Position numbers and translations under genes: made by a program
Notes under the pieces: model-generated
Seen by the model: the letters and a program-made list of their open reading frames with translations, nothing else
Told to the model about the DNA's origin: nothing
Database searches by the model: none
In this document: in pieces, positions 24,783 through 37,448 of the stretch
Position numbering within the stretch: position 1 is the first letter of the stretch
How the letters are laid out: every line of letters starts with the position of its first letter
Source: an uncultured Desulfobacterales bacterium
GTDB lineage: Bacteria > Desulfobacterota > DSM-4660 > Desulfatiglandales > HGW-15
Assembly (NCBI GenBank): GCA_964591925.1
Contig: CAZQCK010000002.1
Span: 2,647 to 64,757, forward strand
Reading direction: 5' to 3'
DNA length: 62,111 bases

Positions 24783-25307
24783 GTGAACCGCCTGCCGAGA
24801 GGGCACTGGATCATGGTTAATGAGCACCTGCCTCCACATACTCCGCCGGCTCCCCCCACTGACAAACAGGTGGCGATCCGGGAAATCATCTTCCAGATCC
24901 GCCGTTTGATGCAGGCCGGATCGCTCTATTCCAAGGAGCTGAGCAAAAAGCACCAGGTCAGCTCCGCGCAGCTCAACTGCCTGCTGGCTCTGTATGAAAA
25001 CGGACCCCTCTCCTCCTCCCAAATCGCCCGCTATATCTTTGTCAAACCCAGCACGGTCACCGGGATCATCGACCGGCTCGAGCAAAAAGGCCTGGCCAAA
25101 AGGACGCGACAATCCACCGATCGCCGCGTCATAACCATCGAGCTCACCGAATCCGGAGAACGACTGTCTGAAAACGCACCCCCGCCCATTCAGCAAAAGA
25201 TCATGGACGGTCTGAGCCGCCTTTCCGCGGAGGAAGCGAAAAGCATCCACCACGGCCTGCAAACCCTTACGCAAATGCTGGATGTACACGACCTGGAAGT
25301 CGAATAG
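24783..25307 (+). CDS. MarR family transcriptional regulator
   Basis: Winged-HTH pattern (SSAQLNCLLALYENGPLSSSQIARYIFVKPSTVTGIIDRLEQKGLAKRTRQSTDRRV). GTG at 24783, or ATG at 24813. Confidence 0.85.
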   Translation: MNRLPRGHWIMVNEHLPPHTPPAPPTDKQVAIREIIFQIRRLMQAGSLYSKELSKKHQVSSAQLNCLLALYENGPLSSSQIARYIFVKPSTVTGIIDRLEQKGLAKRTRQSTDRRVITIELTESGERLSENAPPPIQQKIMDGLSRLSAEEAKSIHHGLQTLTQMLDVHDLEVE

Positions 25308-25338
25308 CCGCTCTCCACCTGGTTCCGCAAAAATCCCC

Positions 25339-25367
25339 TTGACGGATATTTCAAAATGCGGTATATA
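25339..25367 (+). promoter_or_regulatory. sigma-70-type promoter candidate for the MttB-like/AsnB-like unit
   Basis: TTGACG (25339-25344), a 17-nt spacer, then TATATA (25362-25367). It lies in the AT-richer gap after the MarR gene. Confidence 0.5.
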
Positions 25368-25378
25368 TTTTCAGTTCA

Positions 25379-25399
25379 AATGATTTCTATTGAATCATT
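25379..25399. promoter_or_regulatory. inverted repeat, candidate MarR operator
   Basis: AATGATT-tctattg-AATCATT, perfect 7-bp arms, starting 12 nt downstream of the -10 hexamer. Confidence 0.3.
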
Positions 25400-25555
25400 A
25401 ATGGCCGAAAAACACGCGTCCCGCAGGCCTGCCCACAGCCGAGCCACGACCCGGTATTGGGCATCGGGGCGACATCCTTAATCCGCTCTCCCGTGCATCG
25501 GCGATGTTCCAAACAGATACCCGGGGAGGCACGGGCACCCAAAGGAGTCAGCATC

Positions 25556-26770
25556 GTGAATCAAACACAAATAGCACAATCTGAAAGCGTGTTCGGCAAG
25601 GAAACCGTAGAAATGCTTCTGCAGGTCCACAAGGACGCCCTGTGGATTCTGGAAAACATAGGCGTAGGTTGTAAGCAGCCGGAAATGCTGCAAGCATTTC
25701 AAGAACAGGAAGCCGAGGGCCTGGCCTATGTGTGGGAAGACAGAATCTTCGTCACCAACGACCTCGTGGAAAAATGTCTTCAGACCGTGCCCAAGGTGGA
25801 CGACTTCTTTGTTCCGAAGAGCAGCTATTTCATCGGAGGGACTGCGCCGTATATTTACGACGACGAGGCCGGTGAAGGGGGCGTCTTCCCCAAGCCGGAG
25901 CACGCAGAGAGGATCGCGAGGATCGCCGAGGAGAATGACATAGTGCACGGCATGGGGCGGGGAATCAAACTCAAGGATGAAGTCGAACAAATGAACATCA
26001 TGGTGGACAACTGCAGTAAGCCCATGTACTTCGCAGTTACTTCGGACCGTGCGCTCGAGCGGGCCATGGAGATCTACGAGACCAAAAAGGACATCATGAT
26101 CGTCTTTTGCCTCACCCGCTCACCCCTGGAGGTGAATGAAAACTTTTCCGAGCATTTTTACAAGGTGGCCAAGGCCGGTCTGCCCGTGTTTGACTCGGCC
26201 ATGCCCATGGCCGGCATCAGTGCGCCTTACTGCTACAACGGTGTCCTGGCCATGACCCATGCGGAGGTCCTCTTCGGGCTCTGCACGACCCAGCTCGTTA
26301 ATCCCGGCGTACCCTTCATTCATGCCGGGTTTCCGACCATCGCCGATCCGAGCATAGAATACAACCCGAACTACGGCCTGGTCAGCCACTTTCTTCTGAA
26401 CCTCTTCATGACCCACCTGAACCTAATGCTGGATCTTCCCTCCTGCCAGAGCTGCGGCACCACGCACGAGGAACACCCGACGGAGAAGGCCTATCAGGAC
26501 TGCCGGAATGGTCAGGCCATGTGCGAGAAGTACGGATTTCACATGATCCGGCACCCGTTCTCGTTCCTGCGATACCTGATCGACTTTTCCTTCGAAAAGC
26601 TGGAAAAGGGCATGCGCATCGCCGAGGAGATCTCTCCCGATGACGCCCCGGAGGTGGTAATGCCCGCCTATGACGAGCGGGGCATGGAGTCCATCAAGAA
26701 CATCGGTCTCGGCATGTACATGGAGGACCCGCTCACCACGGCCAATCTGGGCAAGGTATTCGTCGAATAG
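25556..26770 (+). CDS. MttB-superfamily (trimethylamine methyltransferase family) protein, short non-Pyl paralog 1
   Basis: The N-terminal pattern VHKDALWILENIGV...LVEKCLQTVPK and the central MPMAGISAPY...THAEVL resemble the non-pyrrolysine MttB family. I prefer the GTG start at 25556 (aaaggag RBS 7 nt upstream), giving 404 aa. The track ORF begins at 25457. Confidence 0.7.
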   Translation: MNQTQIAQSESVFGKETVEMLLQVHKDALWILENIGVGCKQPEMLQAFQEQEAEGLAYVWEDRIFVTNDLVEKCLQTVPKVDDFFVPKSSYFIGGTAPYIYDDEAGEGGVFPKPEHAERIARIAEENDIVHGMGRGIKLKDEVEQMNIMVDNCSKPMYFAVTSDRALERAMEIYETKKDIMIVFCLTRSPLEVNENFSEHFYKVAKAGLPVFDSAMPMAGISAPYCYNGVLAMTHAEVLFGLCTTQLVNPGVPFIHAGFPTIADPSIEYNPNYGLVSHFLLNLFMTHLNLMLDLPSCQSCGTTHEEHPTEKAYQDCRNGQAMCEKYGFHMIRHPFSFLRYLIDFSFEKLEKGMRIAEEISPDDAPEVVMPAYDERGMESIKNIGLGMYMEDPLTTANLGKVFVE

Positions 26771-26855
26771 CCTATTCTCCCGTAGCGAGGGCCCATCCAT
26801 ATAGAGACGAAGCGCTTTTTGCAAATTCTTAAAACTTTTTCAAAGGAGTCAAACC

Positions 26856-28340
26856 ATGGCAAGCATCGCGGGAATCATCTCGCAACACGGACGAATGGAG
26901 GAAGACAGCACAAAGAGCCTGAGGAAGATGCTCCGGCTCATGCGCCACAGAGGGCAGGACAACAGCATCATCCGCACCCTGTTCGACGAGCGGGGTGCCG
27001 TCGGCGCCAATGAGACCAACCTCACGCCCAGGAGAACCTACGGCACATCCCTGGAGGAAAGGCCTTACATACTGTTCGACGGCGAACTCTGCAACGAAAG
27101 GGCAGAGGGACAGGGCGACATCGACGTCTTTACGGATCTGTATGAAAAATACGAGCGGGACGCCTTTTCCCGCCTGGACGGAATCTTCTCCTGCGCCCTG
27201 GTGGAAAAGGACGAAGAGGTGATCCTGGCGAGGGATCACGTGGGATCCCGGCCCCTGTTCTACGGCTGGAACAACCACACCTTTTACTTCAGTACGGAGA
27301 TGAAAGGCCTTGTGGATCACGTCCAGTTCGACATTCACGAGCTGGAGCCCGGGCATATCTACAGCTCCAAGAAGGGGCTGAAACCGTTCGACGCCTTTCA
27401 GCCGGAGCTTCCGGACATAGGAGAGGACGTCAACGAGTGCGCCAGGAATCTACGTGAAATCATGATCGAAGCGGTGCGCAAACGGCTGGACGGTGTGGGT
27501 GCCATATCTCTGAGCGGGGGGCTGGACAGCTCTATCGTGGCGGCCATCGCCAAGGAGTTCAACCCGCACATCCTCCTGTTCACGGGAACCCTGGAAAAGT
27601 CCCCCGGTCCCGACCTGGAAAACGCCAAGGTCATGGCCGAGTTTCTGGGAATGGAGCATCACATCTACAAGATCACGGAGAAGGACATCGTCAACTTCAT
27701 ACCCGACGCCGTGTGGTACCTGGAGAGCTTTGACGAGGACTGCATCAACGGCGTCATCTCCAACTACTACGTGTCCAAAATGGTGAAGCAGCACACCAAC
27801 AGCGTGATGGTGGGCGAGGGGGCGGACGAACTCTTCGGGGGTTATCGCATGGTCCTCAAGAATCCCAAGGTAAAGAGCGACGAGCAGAGGGAACGCCTCG
27901 CACGCAAGCTGGTGGAAATCGCCTATAACACTGCGCTCAGGCGTCTGGACCGTGCGTGGATGGCCAACGGCGTGGATTACCAGACACCCTTTCTGGATTC
28001 CAAGGTCGTGGCCTTCAGTAAGCTGATCCCCATGTCGTGGAAGATTTACGGGGAGAATCAGATTGAAAAGTACGTCCTGAGGGAAGCGTTCCGGGACATG
28101 CTGCCCGAGCAAATCGCCAACAGGGAAAAGCTGCGCTTCTCCATGGGGGTGGGCATGGACGACATCATGGACGAGATCGTATCCTCCATCATCGACCCGG
28201 ACGAGATCAAAAACCGGCCCAAGGCCGCCTACGGCATGCCGTTCGCCTCCTTCAAAGAGCTTTACTATTATGACCTGTTTCTGCAACAATTTCCGCCCTC
28301 CTATGAGGGGCAAACCGTTCGGTGGGACCCGTTCAAGTAG
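26856..28340 (+). CDS. asparagine synthetase B-like amidotransferase lacking the N-terminal Cys nucleophile
   Basis: 494 aa with an Ntn-type N-domain and a PP-loop ATP pyrophosphatase domain (AISLSGGLDSSIVAA). The N-terminus is MASIAGI where the family has MCGIAGI. An aaaggag RBS lies 7 nt upstream. Confidence 0.85.
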   Translation: MASIAGIISQHGRMEEDSTKSLRKMLRLMRHRGQDNSIIRTLFDERGAVGANETNLTPRRTYGTSLEERPYILFDGELCNERAEGQGDIDVFTDLYEKYERDAFSRLDGIFSCALVEKDEEVILARDHVGSRPLFYGWNNHTFYFSTEMKGLVDHVQFDIHELEPGHIYSSKKGLKPFDAFQPELPDIGEDVNECARNLREIMIEAVRKRLDGVGAISLSGGLDSSIVAAIAKEFNPHILLFTGTLEKSPGPDLENAKVMAEFLGMEHHIYKITEKDIVNFIPDAVWYLESFDEDCINGVISNYYVSKMVKQHTNSVMVGEGADELFGGYRMVLKNPKVKSDEQRERLARKLVEIAYNTALRRLDRAWMANGVDYQTPFLDSKVVAFSKLIPMSWKIYGENQIEKYVLREAFRDMLPEQIANREKLRFSMGVGMDDIMDEIVSSIIDPDEIKNRPKAAYGMPFASFKELYYYDLFLQQFPPSYEGQTVRWDPFK

Positions 28341-28358
28341 GGGTATACACCGGCGTGC

Positions 28359-28386
28359 GGGGGCCTTGACGGCCCCCTGTATTTTC
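28359..28386 (+). terminator. stem-loop after the asnB-like gene (weak intrinsic terminator candidate)
   Basis: gggggcc-ttgac-ggccccc followed by tgtatttt. The T-tract is interrupted and merges into the adjacent palindromic repeat. Confidence 0.3.
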
Positions 28387-28484
28387 TCGCCAAGACGGCA
28401 AGACGCTAAGAAAAAAACCTCTTGATATCAATTAGTTCACTTTGCGTCTTGGGCGCGAAATTATTATTTTTTACCAGTCCATCA
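28383..28484. repeat. palindromic long-hairpin repeat element, copy inside the cluster
   Basis: ttctcgccaagacggcaagacgctaagaaaaaaacctcttgatatcaattagttcactttgcgtcttgggcgcgaaatt...ttttttaccagtccatca. It is collinear with the copies at 46336 and 58236. Confidence 0.7.
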
Positions 28485-28516
28485 GGCATAGATTATAACA
28501 TAAGGAGGACCCTCAC

Positions 28517-29848
28517 ATGGCATTTCCAACCAAAGTAAAATACGTAATCATCGGGGCGGGCGTTCACGGCCTGAGCACCGCCTGGCATCTGGCCAAGGAG
28601 CTCAAGGCCGGAAAGGCCGGCTCCGGAGAGGACATCCTGCTCCTGGACAAGACCGCCATCGGCGCGGGGGCTTCAGGTATCGCCTGCGGTGTAATCCGCA
28701 ACAACTACTTCCAGCCGGCCATGCGCGAGCTCATGGCCCAGAGTGTGGACGTATGGGAAGAGGACGCGGAAGGGTACGGATACAACCCCCTGGGATACAT
28801 GCAGATATCCTGTGAATCCATGCATGCGGACGTGGCCACCATCTATGAACAGCAAAAGGCCATCGGCTATGAGTCCGTGTTCGTGGAGGGAGAGAAGGAC
28901 TGCCTCGATTACATGCGAAAGCACATCTTTCACGACTGGCAGGCCAAAAACATAACCTCCGTACTCCACGAGAAAAAGGGTGGATTCGCCTACAACATGC
29001 GTTCCCTTTACCGGCTGGCGGACAAGGCCGAGGCAGAAGGCGTGCGCATAATGACCGACGTCCGGGTCACAGGGCTTCCCATGCAGGGCGACACGGTCAC
29101 GGCCGTGGAAACGGACAAAGGAACCATTGAGTGCGACTACGTGATCTGCGGGCCCGGCCCATGGGCCAAGACCTTCTGGGACATGCTGGGGCTCCCCAAC
29201 GAGATCGACATTCTGGGACGCGACGGGAGTGTCCACAAGGGCGTCCCCATGTGGACCTACTGGTGCCTTGTGGAGGGAACCCTGGGAGTGGAACCGGAGG
29301 TGGGCTATGACAACAACGGCAATCCTCCGCCGGTGATCCATGTAGACACCGACGCACCTCTTTACTCCAGTGAGGACGGATCGCTGATCACGGACAAGAT
29401 TTGGGGGATCTATTACAAACCGGACCTGAATTTCGGCGGCATTCAGGGCGGATCGGCCCCCTACATCGTGGAAGGTTATCCTGAGGTGGATCCTTACGGC
29501 ATCGATTCTCCCGACTTTGTCGTGGGCCCCGAGTTCGTTCACATGTGGACATCGGCCCTGGCCCACTGTCAGAAGCGATATGAGGACAAATACCGTTTCT
29601 ACAAGAACATCCCTTCAGGCGGGCTCGGCTGCTTCACTCCGGACAACTTCCCCATTTTCGACGCCTTGAAGGAAAACTGCTACCTCATGCTGGATTCGAA
29701 CCACGGCTACAAGATGATCGGCGTAGGAAAGCTCGTGGCCAAAGAAGTACTGAACGAAGAACAAGAGCTGCTCAAGCCGTTCCGTTTCGAGCGTTATGAA
29801 AAAGGGGAGCTGCACCCGGTCTCTCACAGCCCCTTCCCATGGAGCTGA
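28517..29848 (+). CDS. FAD-dependent oxidoreductase (DAO family, sarcosine oxidase beta-subunit-like)
   Basis: 443 aa with a dinucleotide-binding motif (KYVIIGAGVHGLSTAWHLAKE). The overall pattern and C-terminus (FRFERYEKGEL) resemble SoxB-type enzymes. Confidence 0.8.
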   Translation: MAFPTKVKYVIIGAGVHGLSTAWHLAKELKAGKAGSGEDILLLDKTAIGAGASGIACGVIRNNYFQPAMRELMAQSVDVWEEDAEGYGYNPLGYMQISCESMHADVATIYEQQKAIGYESVFVEGEKDCLDYMRKHIFHDWQAKNITSVLHEKKGGFAYNMRSLYRLADKAEAEGVRIMTDVRVTGLPMQGDTVTAVETDKGTIECDYVICGPGPWAKTFWDMLGLPNEIDILGRDGSVHKGVPMWTYWCLVEGTLGVEPEVGYDNNGNPPPVIHVDTDAPLYSSEDGSLITDKIWGIYYKPDLNFGGIQGGSAPYIVEGYPEVDPYGIDSPDFVVGPEFVHMWTSALAHCQKRYEDKYRFYKNIPSGGLGCFTPDNFPIFDALKENCYLMLDSNHGYKMIGVGKLVAKEVLNEEQELLKPFRFERYEKGELHPVSHSPFPWS

Positions 29849-30414
29849 CGATCCTCGGGTCTGGAGGGTGCACGGTCATTCCCAAGCCCTGTTGCAGGTG
29901 CAAGGTGTGTGAGGAGGCCAGAAGCAGGGGCGTTCCTTTTGCAAGATCGGGCCCTTCGGCCTTTGTCCACGACATTCGGCTGCTGATCGACACCCCGGCG
30001 GAAATCGCCCAACAGCTCAACCGGGAATGCATCGAGCAAGTGGAGCATCTTCTCTTCACCCACCTGGATCCGGATCACGTGGAAGGATTCCGCGTGGTCG
30101 AACAGATCGCCCTCGATTTCCGCACCTGGCGCGCCTACTCGGACAAACGCATCCGCCTGCTTCTTCCGCGTGCACTCGAGGAGAGAATGCACGGGATTCG
30201 ATCCGCATACGGCCCGCTGATCGATTTTTATGTGGGGCAGGGCTTTGTCGAGCCCGTCCTGTTCGAGGACTCGATCGATATTCAGGGCGTCGCAATACAG
30301 GCCGTCCCCATTGATCGCGGAGATCAGACCACGTTTGTGTACGTGTTCAACGACGGTGAGAAAAAGATGGTCTACGCACCTTCTTTTGATCACCCGCCGA
30401 AGCCGGGGGATTGA
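29839..30414 (+). CDS. PqqB/PhnP-like metallo-beta-lactamase-fold protein, N-terminal half only
   Basis: 191 aa. LGSGGCTVIPKPCCRCKVCEEAR resembles the Cys-rich N-terminus of PhnP/PqqB. The metal motif reads THLDPDH instead of HxHxDH. The ORF stops where family members continue. It overlaps the upstream gene by 10 nt. Confidence 0.55.
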   Translation: MELTILGSGGCTVIPKPCCRCKVCEEARSRGVPFARSGPSAFVHDIRLLIDTPAEIAQQLNRECIEQVEHLLFTHLDPDHVEGFRVVEQIALDFRTWRAYSDKRIRLLLPRALEERMHGIRSAYGPLIDFYVGQGFVEPVLFEDSIDIQGVAIQAVPIDRGDQTTFVYVFNDGEKKMVYAPSFDHPPKPGD

Positions 30415-30442
30415 ATCAACTCTAACGGCAAGGAGAACCATA

Positions 30443-31663
30443 ATGGAATCGACGGAAGCCTTGAACAACCAGGATGAAGAGAACCTCCCTCTGGAAGAGA
30501 CCGAGTTTATTAGACGCATTCATCAGGATGCGCTGCGGGTACTGGAGGAGGTGGGGGTGCGGTGTACCTCGTCCGTTGTGCGCCGCATCTTCGAAGAAAC
30601 GGGCCTGGCGGCTTATGACGAGAGCAGAGGTCACCTGCACGTTCTGACGCCCCTGGTTGAACAGGCCCTGAGCACGGTCCCCAAACGGGACACGTACTGG
30701 ATTCCGGAGAACTCCTTCGGGGTCGGGGGTACCTCCCCGTTCGTATACGACGATCAGACCGGTGAACTCATCGAACCGACCCTCGATCACCTCATCCACA
30801 TCGCCAAGACCGTAAACCAGGCCGACGGTGTCAACTTCATGGCCCGGGGGGTCCTCCTGAAGAAACAGGAGGTCAAGGTCATGGACACGATCGTGGAACA
30901 CTGTGACAAGCCTGTTTACGTGGCTGCGGTCACCGAGGAGGGCATTGCTCGCGCCAAGGAGATCCATGAAACCCGCGGGGGGATCACCATTCAGTTTTCC
31001 ATCCTCAACAGCCCGCTTTTACTCATCGAAAGCATGGTTGAACCCTTCCTGGCGTGCATCAAGGCGGGACTTCCCATCTACGTCTCCACCATGCCCATGG
31101 CCGGTCTGAGCGCCCCTTACTCCATGTCAGGACTGCTGACCCTTACGCACGCCGAGGCCTTGTTCGGCATAACCCTGACCCAGCTCGTCAACCCGGGGCT
31201 CACCACGGTCCACGCAGGGCTTCCTTCCATCGCGAACATTCAGAGAAACTACGCCGTGGACCTCGGCCTCGTTTCTCACAACGCGGCCAATCTGCTCATA
31301 GAAAAGGTGAGTAAAAGGCTGAACATCCCGTCCATCCAGACCGCCTGCACCACCAGCCAGGAGCACCCCAACAAAAAGGCCGAGGAAGAAGGGGCGGCCG
31401 GGTTCGCCATGATGAAAAAGCACGGCTTTCACCAGATGCGGCACGCCTTCGGCTTTCTCAAGGAACTGGTGTCCTTTTCCATAGCCAAACTGGAGCGCCA
31501 CATCGAGCTGATGCGGGAAACCGGTCCCGAGCAGGCCCCGGAGTACGACTTCCTCGTATACGACCCCGAAGGCCTGGAGGTGATCATTCGAAACGGCACC
31601 CAGGCCAACTACATGCGGGACGATCACACCCTCAAGAACACGGGCAAGGCCTTTCTGTACTGA
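30443..31663 (+). CDS. MttB-superfamily protein, short non-Pyl paralog 2
   Basis: 406 aa starting at MESTEALNN (aaggag RBS). It is collinear with paralog 1 (IHQDALRVLEEVGV..., MPMAGLSAPY..THAEALFG..LVNPG). Confidence 0.7.
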   Translation: MESTEALNNQDEENLPLEETEFIRRIHQDALRVLEEVGVRCTSSVVRRIFEETGLAAYDESRGHLHVLTPLVEQALSTVPKRDTYWIPENSFGVGGTSPFVYDDQTGELIEPTLDHLIHIAKTVNQADGVNFMARGVLLKKQEVKVMDTIVEHCDKPVYVAAVTEEGIARAKEIHETRGGITIQFSILNSPLLLIESMVEPFLACIKAGLPIYVSTMPMAGLSAPYSMSGLLTLTHAEALFGITLTQLVNPGLTTVHAGLPSIANIQRNYAVDLGLVSHNAANLLIEKVSKRLNIPSIQTACTTSQEHPNKKAEEEGAAGFAMMKKHGFHQMRHAFGFLKELVSFSIAKLERHIELMRETGPEQAPEYDFLVYDPEGLEVIIRNGTQANYMRDDHTLKNTGKAFLY

Positions 31664-31682
31664 ATCCACGACCCATGAATAA

Positions 31683-31716: not shown

Positions 31717-31737
31717 ACCGACTCCGTAACGTCTTGA

Positions 31738-31869
31738 ACCTGAATTGAGCGATTGTCGAGTTTGCCGAAGATGCAAGGAAGAAGGTGCTTCGCTATACTC
31801 AGGTATGCGAAGCGCCGAATGACGCCGCAGATTCGGTAAAAGCTGCAATTTGAAACGCTCAATTCAGGT
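31738..31869. mobile_element. MITE, short (132-bp) copy with 14-bp TIRs and a TGA target-site duplication
   Basis: The left TIR acctgaattgagcg and right TIR cgctcaattcaggt are perfect reverse complements. The element is flanked by tga (31735-31737) and tga (31870-31872). Over the first ~104 bp it differs from the 54197 copy at only 2 positions. Confidence 0.8.
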
Positions 31870-31950
31870 TGACATCTCGCCCCCTATTCTGCAGATTGTT
31901 GCGGCAGCGGAGGCGACCGGGTACGCCACCGAGCTGAAAGGGGGGCGATC

Positions 31951-34900
31951 GTGTGTGGTATCGTGGGATATTTCGGAGACGCCGGGAACAACCTCACCCG
32001 CGTGCTCACCGCCATGTCGGCCATCACATACAGGGCACCCGACAGCACGGGAGTAGGATTCTTCGGAGATGAAACCGAACCTCTCCGCACCCGCAAATCC
32101 CTTGGTTCGGTGGCCCCCCTGGTCGACGTCCTGGTCGACATTCCCGCCTACCCCAACGCGGCCGAAACATTTCACACCCTGCTGAAAAACCCGAATGAAC
32201 CCGTGCGAAACGCGCAGAAGCGGGTCCTGGAGTTCGAGGGACTTCCCCTGGACATCTTCGAAGCCCTGGACCGGGGCGAGACCTCTTATTGTTCTTTCGA
32301 GGATCTGGTCAACACGGACGACCCTTTGAACCTGGAGCCGGGAAGGCCGGGCCGACCGGATCCACTGCCCCGGGTCGCGATTCGCTCCAGAAAACAGTTC
32401 CAGCGTGTCATTCAAGAGCTCACCTGCAAGTACGACCTTTCTCCCGTAGTGGTTCGCACCCTGATTAGACGGCCCCTGGCCGAGGCCTTGAGCCGCGACT
32501 TCCAAAACGGCTCACTGACCGCTCAACCTATGGAAATCCTCAATGCCTTTGACCGGTTGTTCGATACCGCTTCGCGGGAAGAACGCTCTCCCCGGCCGCA
32601 GCGCATGTACAGTGCCGTACATCCGGACGCGCCTTATGCCGAACGCTATCTCTGGCAATACCTGGTGCGCATTCCCGTGCAGGTCCCTTCAGACTTCGAT
32701 CGAGACGGTGTCCGTTGCCTGTTCAGGCTTCTGGATGCGGCCCTGCTCAGCCGGGCCTCTTCCACACCGCAGCTGGGACCTGCCATACAGGAAACCTTCG
32801 AGTGGCTCTGGCCGGAAGGAAAAGGGGTTCAAACGACCGAGGGGTGGCGATCATGGTATTGGGCTGAAAAGGGCGTCAATGTGTTCGGGCGGGCGGCCTC
32901 CGCTGTTCTCGCCCATTTGCAACGACATGAGATTCTGCCGTCCCTGGCCATGCTGGAGGAAACCGGCGAACAGGGCGTCGAACTCCCGGCGGACGGCCGC
33001 ACGGACCCCTTCACTCTGAGGGCACTGGCCTGCCCGGTGCTCAGTCAGGGGCGATGGGCCCTTCAGTCGCCGGTAACCCTCAAAAACGCCCACCCCTTCT
33101 ATGATCACTTGCGGCACCGCGTCATCGTCCTCAACGGGCAGTTCAGCGGAGACCTGGAGGAAAACCTTCGGCGATTCCTAGAGAACGTGGCCGGATATGA
33201 TTTGCGAAGCCGGAACTCTTCCGAGTATTTCGCGCTCCTCTGGGGGTACTACTACGATGTGTTTCGAGGAGAACAGGGACGCTATGAGGCGGTCCGCGCT
33301 CAGATCGACCGGCACCTGGAGGCCTTCGGCATCGGCAGCCGCTCAATTGACTATGAAATCTACCAGCGGCTGCACGGCAAGTCTCCGGCGGAGCTCGATG
33401 CCGCTGCCTTTGTAGAGGCCGCCCGGTGCATGGCCCGGGACGGAGGACAAATCGCTGTTTCCGGCATGGGCCTGTTGAGCCCCCGCACCCTGTACGTGGC
33501 CAGCCACAACCGCCCTGTGTTCATTGTCCACCGTGCCGGCACGCAGGATTTCATGGTTGTCTCCGATGTCAATGCCGCCATGGGCCTGTTCCCGCAAGAA
33601 ATCATCCACGAAAAGGCCCTGGAGCTGTACAGGATTCAAAAAATACATCAAAGGGAGATCGCCGATCTCCGCGCACAAGGGGTTCGCAGGGAAAAGATCG
33701 TAGGGACCAAAAAACGCCAGGAACAAGAGGAAGGGCGTATCCTGGAAACCTTTGCCGTGAAGGTTTATCCCCTGGAGGGCGAAGAGGCGTTTGCCCGCAT
33801 TCAAACGAGCCCCACCTCGTCCGGGCCGGTCCGTATGGTGACCATCACGGATTTCCAGGGAAGGCCCCTTCCCTCTGTGGAACCTTTCCAGACAAGACTC
33901 AACCCTCTTCAGACCGGAAAAGACCTCCACCGCTCCTTTTACGAAACCCATTTGCTCGAGACGCCGGAGCGCTTTGAACAGATTCTTCAACTCCGCGTGT
34001 CCGAAGAGGACGAAACGCCCCGATTCGAGCTCAGGGAAAGCCTCTTGAGGAGACGCTTCGGCCGCCACCTGGCTTCCCTGGGCCGAATCGTCCTTATGGG
34101 CATGGGCAGCGCTCATCATGCCGGCATCATGGCCAGGCGCACCCTGCAGCTCGCCTTGCCGGAAATCGAGGTGGTCTCCTTGAGACCGGTGGAGGTGGAG
34201 GATCTGAAGCGCTCGATCATACCGGAAAAGGATCTGGTCCTTCTTCTGAGCTGGTCCGGGACCACGGCGGACATGGTCCGCACGGCCAACGAGCTCACAT
34301 CCATGAAGGCGGCGTGTATCGGCGTCACGGAAAAGGCGTTCTCCGATGTGGGCCTGATCACTTCCCGCAGCGTGGGCGTCATCCCCGTTCTGAGTGGTGA
34401 AGAGGTCACGGTACCGGGACTGAAAAGTATTCTCTGTATGATGTTCAACGTTTCTCTCTTCGCGGTCTGGCTTTCCTCCAGGGCGAGACCTGGCACGAAT
34501 ACGGGCCGGCTCATGGAGGGGCTTCAAGGTCTTCCCGACGTCCTCTCCGATGTGCTTCACGACGAGGCAATCGCCTCCTTCTGCCATGATCTGGCAACGA
34601 AAAGTGCCCGGAGCCGATGCGCCATGGTGATCGACGCGCTCTACTCCACCGGTGCGGGCCGCGAAGCCGCGTTTAAACTGGAAGAGACCAGCTGGAACGC
34701 CATCAGCCGCTCACTGGACTACAGGGAAGCCGCCGAGGGGCTGCCCGGGCATGATCCCTCCCGAGACCTGGTCCTCCTGAACGCGACGAACCAGGAGCGC
34801 ATTTCCGAGGCGCTGGACATCATGAGGATGCTTACGGCAAAAGACATGCCTTTTGCCGTGGTGGGGTTCTCCGGCAGACACCAGGCGGAAATGGAACAAG

Positions 34901-36510
34901 CCGCTGGAAGCGGTTTTATCGCCCTTCCCAAGATTGAAGACGAGCTCCAGCCTTTTGTGGACCTTGCATTCTATTACCAATTCGCTTTCCAATACGGTCT
35001 TGCTCACGGCAGGACATCCGAGGACTTCCCGCGCAACCGGGCCAAATCCGTGACTGCGGGACGTTCCTCAGGCCGGACCGGTCTCACGCCCGCCGCCGAG
35101 ATACTGGAAATGGAAACAACCGGAACCCACCCTGTGGTGTGCAACGCGGACCTCCCCCCGCTCTCTGAAGAGAGCCTGTGGGAGCAGGCCGCCTCTACGC
35201 CCTCTGAACGGACTTACTACGCGGGCATGAGAAAGCTGGCCGCAGCCTTACTCGAAGAAGGCGGCCCGGAAACCCTCCTCCATGCTTCCCGTTCCCGCCC
35301 CTTCAGGCTGGCCAAGACGCTCTTCGAGCAGGCACCGGATGAAGGAGAGCTGCTCCTGGTACCGATGGACAGGGCCGCCCACAGCACGGCGCGGACGCTC
35401 GGCATTCACTGGGGGCGCTTGCTGGGATGCGGTGTCCGTGTGGCCACACCGGAGGACATTCTGGCGCACCCACCCCAGGATGTACCCGTCTTCCACCTCG
35501 CGACCCGCCGTCCGAATCCCTCATCTCTTTCAGCCCTGGTGCAAGAGACATTTTCGCCCTGTTTCTACTGCGGCCCGGAACTTCCCGAAAAGGCTGCCTC
35601 CATGTTCGACACGAGGCTCGGGCACTGCGTCCTGCCCGACGAATTGCAGCCCTGCGCCGAGGAAGCCCTTTATGCCGGCTTGTTCCTTCTGTTCGCCGAC
35701 GCCTGGAAACGGGTGAACCTTGCGAGGGGCGCCACCGCTTTGCAGCAGTTGCGTCAATGCGCTCCGGCCGTCCATGCGGTCCTGAACAGCACCTCTCTTC
35801 GAGAGTCCATCTCCGAAGCCGTGCTGGACAATCGTGATTATACCACAGCCTTTTTCATCGGCCAGCCGGGGGGAACCGGGACCGCCTGGGTGCGCCGCTT
35901 CGATGAAATCTCTTGTCTTGCCATGGAATCCTATCTCTTCGGTGAGAGCGTTCACGGCCCTCTGGTGACGGTGGACTCCCGCGTGGATGTCAAGTACGTC
36001 CGAATCGAGGCTCGATCCAAAATGATCTCCACCCACGGAGAAGACCGCTTGTCCGCATGGGAGTCCCAATGCCTGAAGGGACAAACCGTGGACGATTTCC
36101 TCGCAAATCCGCCTCGAAACGTCCCGTTCTACCCACGAAGCCCCTTCTATGCGGAAGGCAGCTGGTATTTCCCGGTTCTCAGGCCCGGCTACAACCCGGA
36201 AAACGACAATCTGATCCTGCTGGACGCCACCAGCGATCGGTTCATCGGACAAATCCTGGACGAAATGGCTACCTACGGATGCCGCTACGCCCGGGTGATT
36301 CTTATCTCTCAGCAGGCGATAGAGGCAAGGCCGGATCGAAGGACACTGCACCGGTATCCCATCGGGCACGCACTCTCCCTTCCCTCCCTGTGGAGCGGCG
36401 GGCGGGAAAGGCCCATATCGGATCTCGCTCTCCCTCTGGTGCTCAACCTGGTCTCCATGGCCATGGCGTCCGAAACCAAACCCGGCCGTGCCGGTATCTC
36501 CATTCATTGA
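31951..36510 (+). CDS. 1519-aa GlmS-like protein: interrupted class II glutamine amidotransferase domain + SIS pair + additional SIS-like C-terminal module
   Basis: GTG start, then CGIVGYFG (Ntn Cys), then GRWALQSPVTLKNAHPF ~310 residues later. SIS motifs are present (RIVLMGMGSAHHAG, LLLSWSGTTADM, GREAAFKLEETSW). A GlmS-like C-terminal FPRNRAKSVT sits at residue ~1030 and is followed by ~480 more residues with another SIS-like signature (FFIGQPGGTGTAWVRRFDEISCLAMESYLFGESVHGPLV). Confidence 0.85.
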   Translation: MCGIVGYFGDAGNNLTRVLTAMSAITYRAPDSTGVGFFGDETEPLRTRKSLGSVAPLVDVLVDIPAYPNAAETFHTLLKNPNEPVRNAQKRVLEFEGLPLDIFEALDRGETSYCSFEDLVNTDDPLNLEPGRPGRPDPLPRVAIRSRKQFQRVIQELTCKYDLSPVVVRTLIRRPLAEALSRDFQNGSLTAQPMEILNAFDRLFDTASREERSPRPQRMYSAVHPDAPYAERYLWQYLVRIPVQVPSDFDRDGVRCLFRLLDAALLSRASSTPQLGPAIQETFEWLWPEGKGVQTTEGWRSWYWAEKGVNVFGRAASAVLAHLQRHEILPSLAMLEETGEQGVELPADGRTDPFTLRALACPVLSQGRWALQSPVTLKNAHPFYDHLRHRVIVLNGQFSGDLEENLRRFLENVAGYDLRSRNSSEYFALLWGYYYDVFRGEQGRYEAVRAQIDRHLEAFGIGSRSIDYEIYQRLHGKSPAELDAAAFVEAARCMARDGGQIAVSGMGLLSPRTLYVASHNRPVFIVHRAGTQDFMVVSDVNAAMGLFPQEIIHEKALELYRIQKIHQREIADLRAQGVRREKIVGTKKRQEQEEGRILETFAVKVYPLEGEEAFARIQTSPTSSGPVRMVTITDFQGRPLPSVEPFQTRLNPLQTGKDLHRSFYETHLLETPERFEQILQLRVSEEDETPRFELRESLLRRRFGRHLASLGRIVLMGMGSAHHAGIMARRTLQLALPEIEVVSLRPVEVEDLKRSIIPEKDLVLLLSWSGTTADMVRTANELTSMKAACIGVTEKAFSDVGLITSRSVGVIPVLSGEEVTVPGLKSILCMMFNVSLFAVWLSSRARPGTNTGRLMEGLQGLPDVLSDVLHDEAIASFCHDLATKSARSRCAMVIDALYSTGAGREAAFKLEETSWNAISRSLDYREAAEGLPGHDPSRDLVLLNATNQERISEALDIMRMLTAKDMPFAVVGFSGRHQAEMEQAAGSGFIALPKIEDELQPFVDLAFYYQFAFQYGLAHGRTSEDFPRNRAKSVTAGRSSGRTGLTPAAEILEMETTGTHPVVCNADLPPLSEESLWEQAASTPSERTYYAGMRKLAAALLEEGGPETLLHASRSRPFRLAKTLFEQAPDEGELLLVPMDRAAHSTARTLGIHWGRLLGCGVRVATPEDILAHPPQDVPVFHLATRRPNPSSLSALVQETFSPCFYCGPELPEKAASMFDTRLGHCVLPDELQPCAEEALYAGLFLLFADAWKRVNLARGATALQQLRQCAPAVHAVLNSTSLRESISEAVLDNRDYTTAFFIGQPGGTGTAWVRRFDEISCLAMESYLFGESVHGPLVTVDSRVDVKYVRIEARSKMISTHGEDRLSAWESQCLKGQTVDDFLANPPRNVPFYPRSPFYAEGSWYFPVLRPGYNPENDNLILLDATSDRFIGQILDEMATYGCRYARVILISQQAIEARPDRRTLHRYPIGHALSLPSLWSGGRERPISDLALPLVLNLVSMAMASETKPGRAGISIH

Positions 36511-36542
36511 TCAGGCGTTTCATAGAACAAAAGGGGGAATTA

Positions 36543-37448
36543 ATGAACGTAACCGTGTATCAGACCAACCCCACACTGCTTGATCTTCATGCAAACATGG
36601 AGGACGTCCTTGCACGCATCAAGGAGGGGCGCGAAAACGGATCCTCCCTGATGGTCTTCCCCGAGCTGGCCCTCACCGGGTACTTCGTGGGCAGCCGCTA
36701 TCACGAGGTGTCCCTTCGCCTGGACTCCGAAGAAATCCGCACCATCGCCTCAGCCACCAAAGGGACTGCGGCTGTGGTCGGATTCATCGAGGAGTCTCCG
36801 TCCATGAACTTTTACAACTCCGCGCTCGTGGCCGTGGACGGGGAAATTCTCTTTACCTATCGAAAGCTGAACCTCCCCAACTACGGCGTATTCGAAGAGC
36901 GCAAGTTCTTTTCTTCCGGAAAGCAGGTCCCCGTGTTCAAGCTGCACGATTTCACGGTGTCCGTCCTGATCTGCAACGACCTGTGGCATCCCTCACTTCC
37001 TTACCTGGGGGTCTGCCAGAAGGCGGACATCTTCGTGACGATTTTCAACTCCTCCCAAGGTTCCATGGGTACGGAGTTTTCCAACATCGAGAGTTGGGGG
37101 ATCATCAACAAGTTTTATTCCCGGATCTTCGGCATCTACAATGTCTGTGCAAACCGTGTTGGAGAAGAGTGCCACGAGAACCGAAGAAGGCGTTCCCCTG
37201 AATCGAGAGGGCCTGAGTCCGAAGCCGATTCCGACGAGATTTCCCAATCCTATCGATTCTGGGGGGGGAGTGAAATCATCAATCCCTTCGGCCAGCCCAT
37301 GGTACGCGCGGCCCTCTACGAACCGGACACCATCTCCGCGGTGCTCTCGAGGGATCTTCTTCGCCGAAAAAAGATCCTTCTTCCCTACCTTAGAAACGAC
37401 GACCCCTACTTCACCCACCGCGAGCTCCAGCGTATTCTCTACGGCTGA
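36543..37448 (+). CDS. carbon-nitrogen hydrolase (nitrilase superfamily)
   Basis: 301 aa with an E-K-C triad context (MVFPELALTGY, YRKLNLPNYG, VLICNDLWH). The start is at MNVTVYQ (aaggggg RBS), 32 nt after the upstream stop. Confidence 0.85.
   Translation: MNVTVYQTNPTLLDLHANMEDVLARIKEGRENGSSLMVFPELALTGYFVGSRYHEVSLRLDSEEIRTIASATKGTAAVVGFIEESPSMNFYNSALVAVDGEILFTYRKLNLPNYGVFEERKFFSSGKQVPVFKLHDFTVSVLICNDLWHPSLPYLGVCQKADIFVTIFNSSQGSMGTEFSNIESWGIINKFYSRIFGIYNVCANRVGEECHENRRRRSPESRGPESEADSDEISQSYRFWGGSEIINPFGQPMVRAALYEPDTISAVLSRDLLRRKKILLPYLRNDDPYFTHRELQRILYG

What the first reader, a model, noticed from the sequence alone, without database searches (positions are those of the whole stretch)
24783..37448. 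MarR-headed same-strand cluster of nitrogen/amide-handling enzymes with no pathway I can assign
Nine consecutive plus-strand genes sit together with short gaps or overlaps. They are a MarR regulator, an MttB-family protein (404 aa), an AsnB-like protein with Cys2 replaced by Ala, a SoxB-like flavoprotein, a half-length PqqB/PhnP-like MBL protein (10-nt overlap with the flavoprotein gene), a second MttB-family protein (406 aa), a 1519-aa GlmS-like GATase/SIS protein, and a nitrilase-superfamily hydrolase (32-nt gap). Each family is individually known. The combination has three different ammonia/amide-transfer catalysts, two methyltransferase-fold proteins without corrinoid partners, and a sugar-phosphate-isomerase-type module. 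It does not match any catabolic or biosynthetic route known to me. The two larger gaps inside the cluster are filled by mobile or repeat elements, so the genes may originally have been contiguous. This is my best candidate for an undescribed system, possibly making or degrading an N-methylated or amidated amino-sugar or osmolyte-like metabolite. That function is speculation.
Basis: partly seen in the sequence, partly recalled or inferred. Interest (0 to 1): 0.8.

Follow-up and report, generated by a model that had tools for sequence, protein, structure and literature searches.

The report
Conserved methylated-amine operon, function unassigned
A set of genes that recurs in many sulfate-reducer-type sediment bacteria most likely strips methyl groups from betaine-like nitrogen compounds by an undescribed route, and may explain how such bacteria handle these compounds without oxygen.

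Summary
Eight same-strand genes lie at the stated coordinates, and their families were confirmed by Pfam, NCBIfam and PDB searches.

The adjacency is not accidental. A module of MarR, a short MttB-like protein (A), a Cys-less AsnB-like protein, a 443-aa flavoprotein, an MBL protein, a second short MttB-like protein (B) and a CN-hydrolase recurs in at least 17 distinct Desulfobacterota metagenome loci at 58-88% identity.

In one lineage the gene order is shuffled. There the module is fused to a complete corrinoid set (long MttB, B12-binding protein, pterin-binding methyltransferase), and SoxBDA replaces the flavoprotein.

Orthologs of the flavoprotein (62-68% identity) head N-methylglutamate-pathway operons in other, probably aerobic, bacteria.

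The 1519-aa GlmS-like protein is an accessory insertion. It nevertheless recurs beside MttB, corrinoid and Sox genes in distant lineages.

The window's MBL gene has lost its C-terminal third. Both large gaps hold dispersed repeats.

Best reading: a MarR-controlled methylated-amine (betaine-type) demethylation module. It includes a two-part amidotransferase, with the CN-hydrolase as a NadE-like glutaminase and the dead-glutaminase AsnB as the synthetase.

The substrate is unknown, and no publication describes the cluster.

The parts
24783..25307 (+). MarR-family regulator. The true start may be the ATG at 24813.
   Evidence: Pfam MarR, 63.8 bits. A MarR gene heads or closes the module in L007, L010, L015-L017, L087, L088 and L092.
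25339..25399 (+). Promoter-like TTGACG-17-TATATA (25339-25367), followed by an operator-like TTCAAATGATTT motif and the inverted repeat AATGATT-N9-AATCATT (25377-25399).
   Evidence: The same TTGAC(A/G)-17-TAnAnT plus TTCAAAT.ATTT arrangement lies upstream of MttB_A in L007, L015, L016, L017 and L088. MarR binding is inferred, not shown.
25556..26770 (+). MttB_A: a short (404 aa), non-pyrrolysine member of the MttB superfamily.
   Evidence: Pfam MTTB, 78.5 bits. Best PDB match is MtgB (9yce/2qne, E 1e-12). It is 84% identical to the L002 ortholog. At the MtgB glycine-betaine site, R312 is Cys here, F356 is Leu, and H348 is kept (PMC13080624).
26856..28340 (+). AsnB*: an AsnB-like PP-loop synthetase with a dead glutaminase domain.
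   Evidence: Matches E. coli AsnB (1ct9) at E 7e-45. SGGLDS and GEGADELFGGY are kept. Position 2 is Ala, Thr, Pro or Ser in 115 of 115 orthologs, never Cys. T322/T323/R325/D384 of E. coli AsnB are D/C/N-S/A in the nine family members aligned.
28341..28516 (.). Intergenic gap holding a dispersed repeat and a terminator-like hairpin (28359-28377).
   Evidence: Other repeat copies lie at 58246-58319 and 46345-46382. The hairpin has 7 G-C pairs followed by a T run. Orthologous loci have gaps of only 20-40 nt here.
28517..29848 (+). DAO-443: an FAD-dependent amine oxidoreductase from a distinct, very conserved 443-aa family.
   Evidence: Pfam DAO covers only residues 9-227. It is 26% identical to SoxB, over the N-terminal half only. 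It is 87% identical to the L002 ortholog. Orthologs at 62-68% identity lie next to gmaS-mgsABC or soxBDAG.
29839..30414 (+). Truncated MBL-fold gene: 191 aa, corresponding to residues 1-190 of a 282-289-aa PhnP/PqqB-like protein.
   Evidence: tblastn with the full-length L002 ortholog matches only residues 1-190, and MttB_B starts 29 nt after the stop. Full-length copies occur in L001, L002, L007, L087, L088 and L092.
30443..31663 (+). MttB_B: a second short MttB-superfamily paralog (406 aa), about 42% identical to MttB_A.
   Evidence: Pfam MTTB, 109.5 bits. More than 790 homolog clusters score E<1e-20, and the top 120 are all at least 73% identical. It accompanies MttB_A in every locus whose span covers both positions.
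31737..31870 (.). MITE-like repeat with 18-nt inverted ends, in the gap before the giant gene.
   Evidence: A second copy lies at 54197-54300 and 54426-54455.
31951..36510 (+). 1519-aa GlmS-like amidotransferase. It has an Ntn glutaminase domain split by a helical insert of about 320 aa, a GlmS-type isomerase module (residues 641-1036), and a second alpha/beta module (1041-1519). It is accessory to the operon.
   Evidence: Cys1 and glutaminase motifs are near-invariant (>=95%) in 104 homologs. AF2 models score pLDDT 87-88. Foldseek matches GFAT/GlmS isomerase (TM-score on target 0.85-0.88) and glutaminase domains. The gene is absent from L008, L011, L013, L018, L022, L087 and L088.
36543..37448 (+). 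CN-hydrolase (nitrilase superfamily), closest to the glutaminase domain of glutamine-dependent NAD+ synthetase.
   Evidence: Pfam CN_hydrolase, 111 bits. NCBIfam NAD+ synthase, 108 bits over residues 1-169. PDB 5kha matches at E 2e-21, with aligned E-K-C residues and the NLPNYGVF(E/D)E motif.

Best explanation
The region carries a lineage-specific version of a widespread operon of sediment Desulfobacterota, probably repressed by MarR. The operon belongs to anaerobic methylated-amine (betaine-type or N-methyl amino acid) catabolism.

Proposed working, all inferred:
1. The two short MttB-family TIM-barrel paralogs (A and B), always found together, remove N-methyl groups. They pass them to a corrinoid protein and on to tetrahydrofolate. 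In this genome that corrinoid protein is encoded elsewhere.
2. The 443-aa flavoprotein oxidatively removes a remaining N-methyl group from the amino-acid product. This is a sarcosine-oxidase-like step that yields formaldehyde.
3. The Cys-less AsnB-like enzyme adenylates a carboxylate that is not aspartate and converts it to an amide. The ammonia comes from the CN-hydrolase acting as a NadE-type glutaminase. Together they form a two-part amidotransferase.
4. The MBL hydrolase is dispensable. It is truncated in this window.
5. The 1519-aa protein is an added GlmS-like amidotransferase. Its two tandem isomerase-type modules probably imitate the GlmS dimer. Its substrate is unknown.

Shown: gene content, family assignments, conservation, co-occurrence patterns, and residue states.
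Inferred: every catalytic role and the substrate class.
For: Conservation with rearrangement:
- The same genes occur in L002, L007-L018, L022, L024, L087, L088 and L089.
- L092-L094 have the order MttB_A-MBL-AsnB*-MttB_B-CNh-MarR. This sits directly downstream of a MetH-activation-like gene, a long MttB, a Pterin_bind gene and a B12-binding gene. SoxB-D-A is divergent and there is no DAO-443.

Methylated-amine context:
- In about 65 loci, DAO-443 orthologs (62-68% identity) have as commonest neighbours GmaS-like (21 loci), MgsA (13), MgsB (11), MgsC (7) and SoxB/SoxA-like (8 and 7) genes. In four of these loci a GFA gene also lies near DAO-443.
- OpuAC-type transporters lie beside L087 and L090.
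- The giant protein lies next to MttB-corrinoid-(Pterin_bind) or SoxBDA genes in L004, L089 and L091, and near a short MttB gene and an OpuAC transporter in L090.

Amidotransferase pairing:
- AsnB* lacks Cys1 in 115 of 115 orthologs, yet keeps the PP-loop and E348.
- The CN-hydrolase is most similar to NadE glutaminase domains.
- The CN-hydrolase is present in 9 of 10 loci with AsnB* whose 3' end is visible. It is absent from the loci where a Cys-containing AsnB paralog is the only AsnB (L009/L010, L016).

Regulation:
- A conserved promoter plus operator-like motif lies upstream of MttB_A.
Against: - No corrinoid protein, pterin-binding methyltransferase or activase lies in the window or in the canonical loci.
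- The short MttB proteins lack about 80 C-terminal residues. They also lack two of the four glycine-betaine-binding residues of MtgB.
- An ATP-consuming amidation is unusual in a catabolic route.
- AsnB* is missing in L007, and the CN-hydrolase is missing in L017.
- No AsnB-CN-hydrolase fusion was found among 150 representatives.
- AsnB* and the CN-hydrolase are never adjacent.
- In this window the MBL gene is truncated, and a strong terminator-like hairpin separates AsnB* from DAO-443. This copy may therefore be partly decayed or split into two transcripts.
- No cultured carrier, transcript or biochemical data exist.
Confidence: 0.45

Rival explanations
1. This is a biosynthetic operon. It makes an N-methylated, carboxamide-bearing small molecule, such as a compatible solute or signal. 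The MttB-like proteins would work in the methylating direction, and AsnB*/CN-hydrolase would install the amide.
For: - ATP-dependent amidation is typical of biosynthesis. AsnB* keeps a complete synthetase site.
- A glutaminase-type partner is present.
- Osmolyte transporters are nearby in two loci.
Against: - The nearest context of every informative member is catabolic. This includes DAO-443 with gmaS/mgs/sox genes, SoxBDA with a GCV_T domain, and Pterin_bind methyl-corrinoid:THF transferases.
- Known MttB-family enzymes are demethylases (PMC13080624).
- No SAM-dependent methyltransferase and no exporter is conserved in the module.
Confidence: 0.15
2. This is an anaerobic analogue of the N-methylglutamate pathway for monomethylamine. 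AsnB*, with its dead glutaminase domain, ligates free methylamine to an acidic amino acid in place of GmaS. The CN-hydrolase and the MttB-like barrels process the methylamide. DAO-443 oxidises the resulting N-methyl amino acid.
For: - DAO-443 orthologs head GntR-DAO-gmaS-mgsABC operons in at least 20 loci.
- The parts list is formally parallel: an ATP-dependent amide synthetase, an amidohydrolase, TIM barrels and a flavoprotein.
- Bacteria without pyrrolysine have no known anaerobic route for monomethylamine.
Against: - In L009/L010 and L016, AsnB* is replaced by a normal glutamine-hydrolysing AsnB paralog with an intact Cys1 site. That points to ammonia, not methylamine, as the nucleophile.
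- No GmaS or Mgs homolog is in the window cluster.
- The module is fused to a quaternary-amine-type MttB, corrinoid and pterin set.
Confidence: 0.12
3. This is a support module for the corrinoid cofactor or corrinoid proteins. It would remodel or repair carboxamide side chains, rather than act on the amine substrate itself.
For: - The module is fused to corrinoid, pterin-binding and MetH-activation-like genes in L092-L094.
- Amidation and amide hydrolysis are the chemistry of corrin side chains.
Against: - Corrin amidation uses CobB/CobQ-type enzymes, not AsnB-type enzymes.
- This reading gives no role to an amine-oxidising flavoprotein that is interchangeable with SoxBDA.
- Most loci carry no corrinoid gene at all.
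Confidence: 0.05
4. The adjacency is accidental. These are unrelated genes kept together only by recent common ancestry.
For: - The wider synteny (DUF1015, Amidohydro_1, GlnD-PII-Amt) between the window, L002 and L007 is lineage inertia.
- Repeats and a terminator-like hairpin interrupt the window copy.
Against: - The module persists while its flanks change completely (L087, L088, L092).
- It persists with a shuffled internal order.
- It occurs across taxa labelled Desulfobacterales, Desulfatiglandales and others.
Confidence: 0.02

Closest known systems
Corrinoid-dependent quaternary-amine methyltransferase systems (MtgB/MtgC/MtgA of Desulfitobacterium hafniense; MtpB, MtcB, MtyB; the aerobic MtgBCD of Ruegeria)
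   Same: - The window encodes two non-pyrrolysine MttB-superfamily TIM-barrel proteins, and MtgB is their best solved relative.
- In L092-L094 the module is co-operonic with a corrinoid protein and a pterin-binding methyltransferase.
- The betaine-transporter and Sox contexts resemble those described for glycine betaine clusters (PMC12478193, PMC9768040).
   Different: - The proteins are 392-406 aa rather than about 470-500 aa.
- R312 and F356 of the MtgB betaine site are replaced.
- They always occur as an A/B paralog pair.
- No corrinoid, MTII or activase gene lies in the window or in the canonical loci.
- They are accompanied by AsnB-like, CN-hydrolase and MBL genes, which no described system has.
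N-methylglutamate pathway (GmaS, MgsABC, MgdABCD)
   Same: - The flavoprotein belongs to a family whose members (62-68% identity) sit at the head of gmaS-mgsABC operons or next to soxBDAG/mgdABCD-like genes.
- The general logic is shared: an amide synthetase, an amidohydrolase and a demethylating flavoprotein.
   Different: - No GmaS, MgsA/B/C or MgdB/C/D homolog lies in the cluster.
- DAO-443 is not MgdA/SoxB. It is 26% identical over half its length.
- The host lineages (Desulfobacterota from sediment) are presumed anaerobes.
Glutamine-dependent NAD+ synthetase (NadE: nitrilase-type glutaminase plus PP-loop synthetase)
   Same: - The CN-hydrolase aligns best with NadE glutaminase domains, including the E-K-C residues and the NLPNYGVF(D/E)E motif.
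- AsnB* carries a PP-loop ATP-pyrophosphatase synthetase domain that has lost its own glutaminase.
   Different: - These are two separate, non-adjacent genes.
- The synthetase is AsnB-type, not NadE-type.
- No fusion was found.
- A physical complex and an ammonia tunnel are untested.
Glucosamine-6-phosphate synthase (GlmS/GFAT)
   Same: - The giant protein has Cys1 and the Ntn glutaminase motifs.
- It has a double-SIS isomerase module with equivalents of the phosphate loop, K485, E488 and the C-terminal K603 tail.
- Foldseek TM-score on the target is 0.85-0.88.
   Different: - It is 1519 aa rather than about 610 aa.
- A helical insert of about 320 aa splits the glutaminase domain.
- The Asp that binds the glutamine alpha-amino group (GlmS D123) is a near-invariant (>=95%) Ser.
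- The H504 position in module 1 is not His. A GES.HGP motif lies instead in a second C-terminal module of about 480 aa with no Pfam match.
- The genomic context is methylamine genes, not cell-wall genes.
Asparagine synthetase B and its Cys-less relatives (beta-lactam synthetase, CarA, lasso-peptide cyclases)
   Same: - It has the two-domain AsnB architecture.
- The PP-loop, E348, K429 and K449 are kept.
- As in beta-lactam synthetase and CarA, the N-terminal domain cannot hydrolyse glutamine.
   Different: - It is much closer to true AsnB (157 bits) than to beta-lactam synthetase or CarA (56-63 bits).
- The residues T322/T323/R325 are replaced. From memory, these are needed for beta-aspartyl-AMP formation.
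- A separate glutaminase-like gene co-occurs with it.

Membership tests
MttB superfamily (PF06253) | Significant match to the family profile. | tested here: met
   78.5 and 109.5 bits against a gathering score of 25. MtgB and MttB structures are the only PDB sequence hits.
Trimethylamine methyltransferase MttB (pyrrolysine type) | An in-frame UAG (pyrrolysine), and a score above the equivalog cut-off. | tested here: not met
   Both ORFs are uninterrupted. TIGR02369 scores 71.7 and 82.6 bits against a cut-off of 525.
Glycine betaine methyltransferase MtgB | Betaine-binding residues Y97, R312, H348 and F356 (PMC13080624). | tested here: not met
   In MttB_A, R312 is Cys and F356 is Leu. H348 is kept. 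The Y97 region is gapped (alignment). MttB_B has Ile and Leu at the same two places.
Three-component corrinoid methyltransferase system | A cognate corrinoid protein and a methyl-corrinoid:THF/CoM methyltransferase encoded alongside. | tested here: not met
   tblastn with a B12-binding protein finds nothing in the window or in the canonical loci. The feature is met only in the variant loci L092-L094.
Three-component corrinoid methyltransferase system | Methylation of cob(I)alamin or a corrinoid protein by the substrate. | not testable with these tools
   This needs an enzyme assay.
Asparagine synthetase B (glutamine-hydrolysing) | An N-terminal Cys nucleophile and the glutamine-binding residues R49 and N74. 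| tested here: not met
   The N-terminus is MASIAG. Position 2 is A, T, P or S in 115 of 115 orthologs. By my own alignment of the sequence, R49 is Thr and N74 is Asp.
Asparagine synthetase B (glutamine-hydrolysing) | A score above the curated equivalog cut-offs. | tested here: not met
   PRK09431 scores 301.6 against 499. TIGR01536 scores 237.1 against 267.1.
Asparagine synthetase B (glutamine-hydrolysing) | The PP-loop SGGLDS and the catalytic E348 motif. | tested here: met
   Both are conserved in all aligned members.
Asparagine synthetase B (glutamine-hydrolysing) | The beta-aspartyl-AMP residues T322, T323 and R325. Their role is recalled from mutagenesis literature and was not re-read. 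| tested here: not met
   They are D, C and N/S throughout the AsnB* family. R325 is kept in the Cys-containing paralog.
Heterotetrameric sarcosine oxidase / N-methylglutamate dehydrogenase beta subunit (SoxB/MgdA) | A full-length match above the cut-off, with SoxA, SoxD and SoxG partners. | tested here: not met
   TIGR01373 scores 65.7 against 529. Identity to SoxB-like proteins is 26% over the N-terminal half. The window has no SoxA/D/G.
N-methylglutamate pathway | Presence of gmaS and mgsABC. | tested here: not met
   tblastn finds none in the cluster. Only an unrelated 29% GATase hit lies at 59777.
Glutamine-dependent NAD+ synthetase | A nitrilase-type glutaminase domain with the E-K-C triad. 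| tested here: met
   The alignment to 5kha covers FPEL, K-x-NLPNYGVF and LIC(N/E)D.
Glutamine-dependent NAD+ synthetase | A fused NAD synthetase domain, and a score above the cut-off. | tested here: not met
   The protein is 301 aa with only the CN_hydrolase domain. NF010588 scores 108 against 479.
GlmS (glutamine-fructose-6-phosphate aminotransferase) | A Cys1 Ntn glutaminase plus a double-SIS isomerase fold. | tested here: met
   The N-terminus is MCGIVG and is near-invariant (>=95% of 104 homologs). Foldseek gives TM-score on target 0.85-0.88 to the isomerase domains and 0.61 to 1xff.
GlmS (glutamine-fructose-6-phosphate aminotransferase) | A score above the equivalog cut-off, D123, H504, and a two-domain architecture of about 610 aa. 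| tested here: not met
   TIGR01135 scores 123.8 against 418. D123 is Ser and H504 is Glu in module 1. The protein is 1519 aa with two extra regions.
MarR family | A winged-helix MarR domain. | tested here: met
   PF01047, 63.8 bits.

The most novel reading that the evidence does not exclude
The module is a pyrrolysine-independent, anaerobic way to demethylate tertiary and secondary methylamines that ordinary non-Pyl MttB enzymes cannot handle. An example is dimethylglycine to sarcosine to glycine, the step after glycine betaine demethylation whose enzymes are still unknown in anaerobes (PMC9768040).

In this reading:
1. AsnB*, with CN-hydrolase-derived ammonia, first converts the substrate's carboxylate to a carboxamide. 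This lowers the pKa of the amine and makes it a better leaving group.
2. The short MttB_A/B pair lacks the carboxylate-binding Arg of MtgB. It then transfers the methyl groups to a corrinoid.
3. The flavoprotein (or SoxBDA) and a hydrolase finish the job.
Probability: 0.15. Interest if true: 0.85.

Novelty: new variant of a known kind. Interest (0 to 1): 0.62.

Why it matters
Betaines and methylamines are major nitrogen osmolytes in marine sediments. They are also 'non-competitive' methanogenic substrates.

How sulfate-reducer-type bacteria degrade them beyond the first demethylation is unresolved. The module found here is abundant: the MttB_B and AsnB* searches each returned hundreds of homolog clusters, the 120 listed for each being at least 70% identical. 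It is strongly conserved and physically linked to corrinoid, Sox and betaine-transport genes.

This makes it a concrete, testable candidate for the missing steps. It also points to three uncharacterised protein families:
- the short MttB_A/B pair;
- the 443-aa flavoprotein that also heads N-methylglutamate operons in other, probably aerobic, bacteria;
- the 1500-aa GlmS-like protein.

Tried and rejected
1. Giant-CN-hydrolase fusion. The roughly 1830-aa homologs suggested a Rosetta-stone link. However, tblastn with the CN-hydrolase finds nothing in L005, and only SIS is recorded for that protein. Rejected.
2. AsnB-CN-hydrolase fusions. None occur among the 150 best representatives. The long hits (889, 1008 and 557 aa) carry only CN_hydrolase.
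3. The giant as glutamate synthase (my first guess from its length). Rejected by Pfam, NCBIfam and PDB results.
4. A metal site in the MttB_A motif SCQSCG. It is not conserved; other loci have SFQSAG.
5. DAO-443 as MgdA/SoxB, as a JGI annotation implies. Rejected: only 26% identity over half its length, and it co-occurs with SoxB-like genes.
6. Structured RNA in the gaps. Rfam finds only the SRP RNA, elsewhere in the window.
7. Annotated relatives of DAO-443 on plasmids. None found.
8. Sequence identification of the giant's C-terminal module. No Pfam hit. hhalign to module 1 is colinear but weak, at E 0.009.
9. Nitrogen-regulation linkage (GlnD-PII-Amt downstream). Shared only with L002/L003, which carry the same contig sequence, and absent from L087, L088 and L092. 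I treat it as lineage synteny.
10. Literature searches for the gene combination. Nothing found.

Full report
**What is in the window.** ORF listing and translation plus Pfam and NCBIfam scans confirm eight plus-strand genes between 24783 and 37448:
- a MarR regulator;
- a short MttB-superfamily protein (MttB_A, 25556-26770, 404 aa, start fixed by ortholog alignment);
- an AsnB-like protein starting MASIAG (26856-28340);
- a DAO-family flavoprotein of 443 aa (28517-29848);
- a 191-aa MBL-fold ORF overlapping the flavoprotein gene by 10 nt;
- a second short MttB paralog (MttB_B, 30443-31663, about 42% identical to the first);
- a 1519-aa protein with an MCGIVG N-terminus and SIS domains (31951-36510);
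- a CN-hydrolase 32 nt further on (36543-37448).

Otherwise the description is accurate.

The MBL ORF is a truncation. The 289-aa ortholog from L002 aligns only over residues 1-190, and MttB_B starts 29 nt after the stop.

Both large intergenic gaps contain small dispersed repeats with other copies in the window. One has 18-nt inverted ends. The gap between the AsnB-like gene and the flavoprotein gene also carries a strong terminator-like hairpin. Rfam finds nothing in the region.

**Is the adjacency meaningful?** Yes.
- The closest genome relative is L001, an uncultured Desulfobacterales MAG with a giant protein 80% identical to the window's. It holds the 3' part of the cluster: MBL, MttB_B, the giant gene and CNh.
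- A locus whose giant protein is 59% identical (L002) carries the full set.
- A metagenome scan seeded with the flavoprotein returned 80 loci. tblastn of all window proteins against them shows that every locus with a flavoprotein at least 70% identical carries the set MarR, MttB_A, AsnB-type, flavoprotein, (MBL), MttB_B, (CN-hydrolase).
- Homolog searches show that MttB_B and the AsnB-like protein each have hundreds of homolog clusters, the 120 listed for each being at least 70% identical. Those that carry names come from Desulfobacterales, Desulfobacteraceae, Desulfatiglandales and similar MAGs.
- Flanks differ completely in L087 (a 5.2-Mb contig) and L088, while the seven-gene operon is intact.

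Most telling are L092-L094. There the order is MttB_A-MBL-AsnB*-MttB_B-CNh-MarR. These genes follow directly on a MetH-activation-like gene, a long (487 aa) MttB, a pterin-binding methyltransferase and a B12-binding corrinoid protein. SoxB-SoxD-SoxA is transcribed divergently, and the 443-aa flavoprotein is absent. A set of genes that stays together through reshuffling is functionally coupled.

**The giant protein is accessory.** It is present in the window, L001, L002, L007 and L089. It is absent from L008, L011, L013, L018, L022, L087, L088 and L092, where MttB_B is followed directly by the CN-hydrolase.

It is nevertheless a well-defined family of about 1515-aa proteins: 210 hits, with full-length coverage in all 120 listed, down to 40% identity. 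In distant lineages it again sits with methylamine genes:
- SoxBDA-MttB-corrinoid-giant (L004);
- DAO-443-MttB_B-SoxBDA-giant-CNh (L089);
- a short MttB gene, an OpuAC transporter, then PrpD-giant-GFA (L090);
- MttB-corrinoid-Pterin_bind-PrpD-giant (L091).

Two other loci show no such context.

An alignment of 104 members shows a near-invariant (>=95%) Cys1 and Ntn glutaminase motifs. However, the Asp that binds the glutamine alpha-amino group in GlmS is a near-invariant (>=95%) Ser. The first isomerase module keeps the phosphate loop, K485, E488 and the K603 tail, but not H504. A conserved GES.HGP.vTvD motif, resembling the GlmS H504 motif, lies in the C-terminal 480 residues.

AlphaFold models of residues 1-641 and 641-1519 are confident (pLDDT 87 and 88). 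Foldseek matches the GlmS/GFAT isomerase domains (TM-score on target 0.85-0.88) and glutaminase domains. The helical insert of about 320 aa has no match. The C-terminal module has no Pfam hit and only a weak colinear hhalign match to module 1.

I infer, but could not verify, that the two modules form an intramolecular mimic of the GlmS dimer. In GlmS, H504 is supplied by the partner subunit.

**The flavoprotein.** It is not SoxB or MgdA. Identity is 26% over the N-terminal half only, and the NCBIfam soxB score is 66 against a cut-off of 529.

Its family is unusually conserved. It is 87% identical between genomes whose giant proteins are 59% identical.

The family extends at 62-68% identity into marine and soil bacteria. 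There its commonest neighbours are GmaS-like, MgsA, MgsB and MgsC genes, a conserved 129-aa ORF and a GntR regulator. In other loci it lies beside soxBDAG-like genes, Rieske oxygenases, GMC oxidoreductases, long MttB homologs or GFA.

Together with its replacement by SoxBDA in L092, this places it in oxidative N-demethylation of N-methyl amino acids. The exact substrate is unknown.

**The AsnB-like protein and the CN-hydrolase.** AsnB* is closest to true AsnB (1ct9, E 7e-45). It keeps the PP-loop, E348, Y357, R387, K429 and K449.

Position 2 is never Cys in 115 orthologs. The E. coli AsnB residues T322, T323, R325 and D384 are D, C, N/S and A in the nine family members aligned. I recall from mutagenesis work that the first three are needed for beta-aspartyl-AMP formation. 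The acid substrate is therefore probably not aspartate.

A second AsnB paralog has an intact glutaminase site (MCGIAGC..., about 538 aa). It replaces AsnB* in L009/L010 and L016, and is added in L022, L088 and L089.

The CN-hydrolase aligns best with the glutaminase domain of glutamine-dependent NAD+ synthetase (5kha, E 2e-21). The alignment includes the catalytic E, K and C residues and the NLPNYGVF(D/E)E motif.

The CN-hydrolase is present in nine of ten loci with AsnB* whose 3' end is visible. It is absent where only the Cys-containing paralog is present. This suggests a split amidotransferase with NadE-like logic.

The evidence is modest, for four reasons:
- there are few independent lineages;
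- there is one exception each way (L017, L007);
- the two genes are never adjacent;
- no fusion occurs among 150 representatives.

**The MttB-like pair.** Both paralogs pass the Pfam threshold, and MtgB is their best solved relative. They are about 80 residues shorter than characterised members.

At the MtgB betaine site (Y97, R312, H348, F356; PMC13080624) they keep only the His. The carboxylate-binding Arg is Cys in A and Ile in B, and F356 is Leu in both.

No corrinoid gene lies in the window or in the canonical loci. The L092-type fusion shows they can share an operon with one. MttB_A and MttB_B occur together in every locus whose span covers both positions.

**Regulation.** Upstream of MttB_A, six loci share a TTGAC(A/G)-17-TAnAnT promoter-like element followed by a TTCAAAT.ATTT motif. 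This motif is a perfect palindrome, TCAAATAATTTGA, in L088. A MarR operator is the obvious inference, but it is untested.

**Interpretation.** The best-supported reading is a MarR-controlled module of anaerobic methylated-amine (betaine-type) catabolism:
- methyl transfer by the MttB_A/B pair to a corrinoid encoded elsewhere;
- oxidative removal of a remaining N-methyl group by the flavoprotein;
- an ATP-dependent amidation by AsnB* with CN-hydrolase-derived ammonia;
- an optional MBL hydrolase;
- in this lineage, an added GlmS-like amidotransferase of unknown substrate.

I put about 0.65 on the general assignment and 0.45 on the package as stated.

The rivals are a biosynthetic role, an N-methylglutamate-like methylamine route, cofactor maintenance, and chance adjacency. 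They are weighed in the structured fields.

The most novel reading not excluded is that amidation activates tertiary or secondary amines for pyrrolysine-independent methyl transfer. Dimethylglycine is an example. This would fill the step that studies of glycine-betaine-fermenting anaerobes leave open (PMC9768040).

**Novelty.** No paper in the searchable library combines these families. Every enzyme family is known, and the context is a known kind of metabolism. I therefore rate it a new variant of a known kind, with real potential for new chemistry.

The window's own copy shows signs of erosion: a truncated MBL gene, repeat insertions and an internal terminator-like hairpin. A relative such as L087, L088 or L092 would be the better experimental starting point.

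Noticed in passing
L032, L043, L046, L064, L079 and about 15 further loci (e.g. L032:9977-16419): In marine and soil bacteria, a 443-457-aa flavoprotein heads a conserved GntR | DAO-gmaS-mgsA-mgsB-mgsC-129-aa-ORF operon. It is 62-68% identical to the window's DAO. In some loci mgdABC-like genes follow, or GFA precedes. Neither this flavoprotein nor the 129-aa ORF is part of the textbook N-methylglutamate pathway.
   Followed up: partly
window 31737-31870 and 54197-54455; window 28377-28450, 58246-58319, 46345-46382: There are two families of small dispersed intergenic repeats. One is MITE-like, with 18-nt inverted ends. Both recur several times in the 62-kb window.
   Followed up: partly
window 11254-11516: Bacterial large SRP RNA (Rfam RF01854, 145 bits).
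   Followed up: no
window 43249-51163: A nitrogen-regulation block lies here: GlnD-like (minus strand), PII (45951-46289, minus), AmtB (46410-47678, minus), a second PII (48200-48538, plus) and a second GlnD-like gene (plus). The same block follows the cluster in L002. It is absent near the module in L087, L088 and L092.
   Followed up: partly
P0025, P0032, P0033, P0038, P0067 etc. (L005:2650-8136): A subset of the giant-protein family is about 1830 aa long. The extra 300 or so residues are not a CN-hydrolase and have no recorded Pfam domain.
   Followed up: partly
L087:6174-7657 and L011:4234-5414: In related loci the AsnB* gene (L087) and the MttB_B gene (L011) are each split into two ORFs. 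Like the truncated MBL in the window, these are either frameshifts or assembly errors.
   Followed up: no
L090:6414-13772, L091:6599-12548: An MmgE/PrpD-family gene lies immediately upstream of the giant gene in two distant loci. GFA and DUF3786 genes follow it in one of them. PrpD-like genes also occur near DAO-443 in L044, L068 and L070.
   Followed up: no
window 20125-24735; L002, L007: DUF1015 and a 495-aa Amidohydro_1 gene lie upstream of the cluster in the window, L002 and L007; an M23 peptidase gene accompanies them in the window and L007 only. None of these lies near the module elsewhere. This is probably lineage synteny.
   Followed up: partly
AsnB* orthologs P0268-P0386: Sixteen of 115 orthologs begin MAC(I/L/V)(A/V)G. 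They carry Cys at position 3 rather than position 2, which would not give an N-terminal nucleophile after normal Met removal.
   Followed up: no
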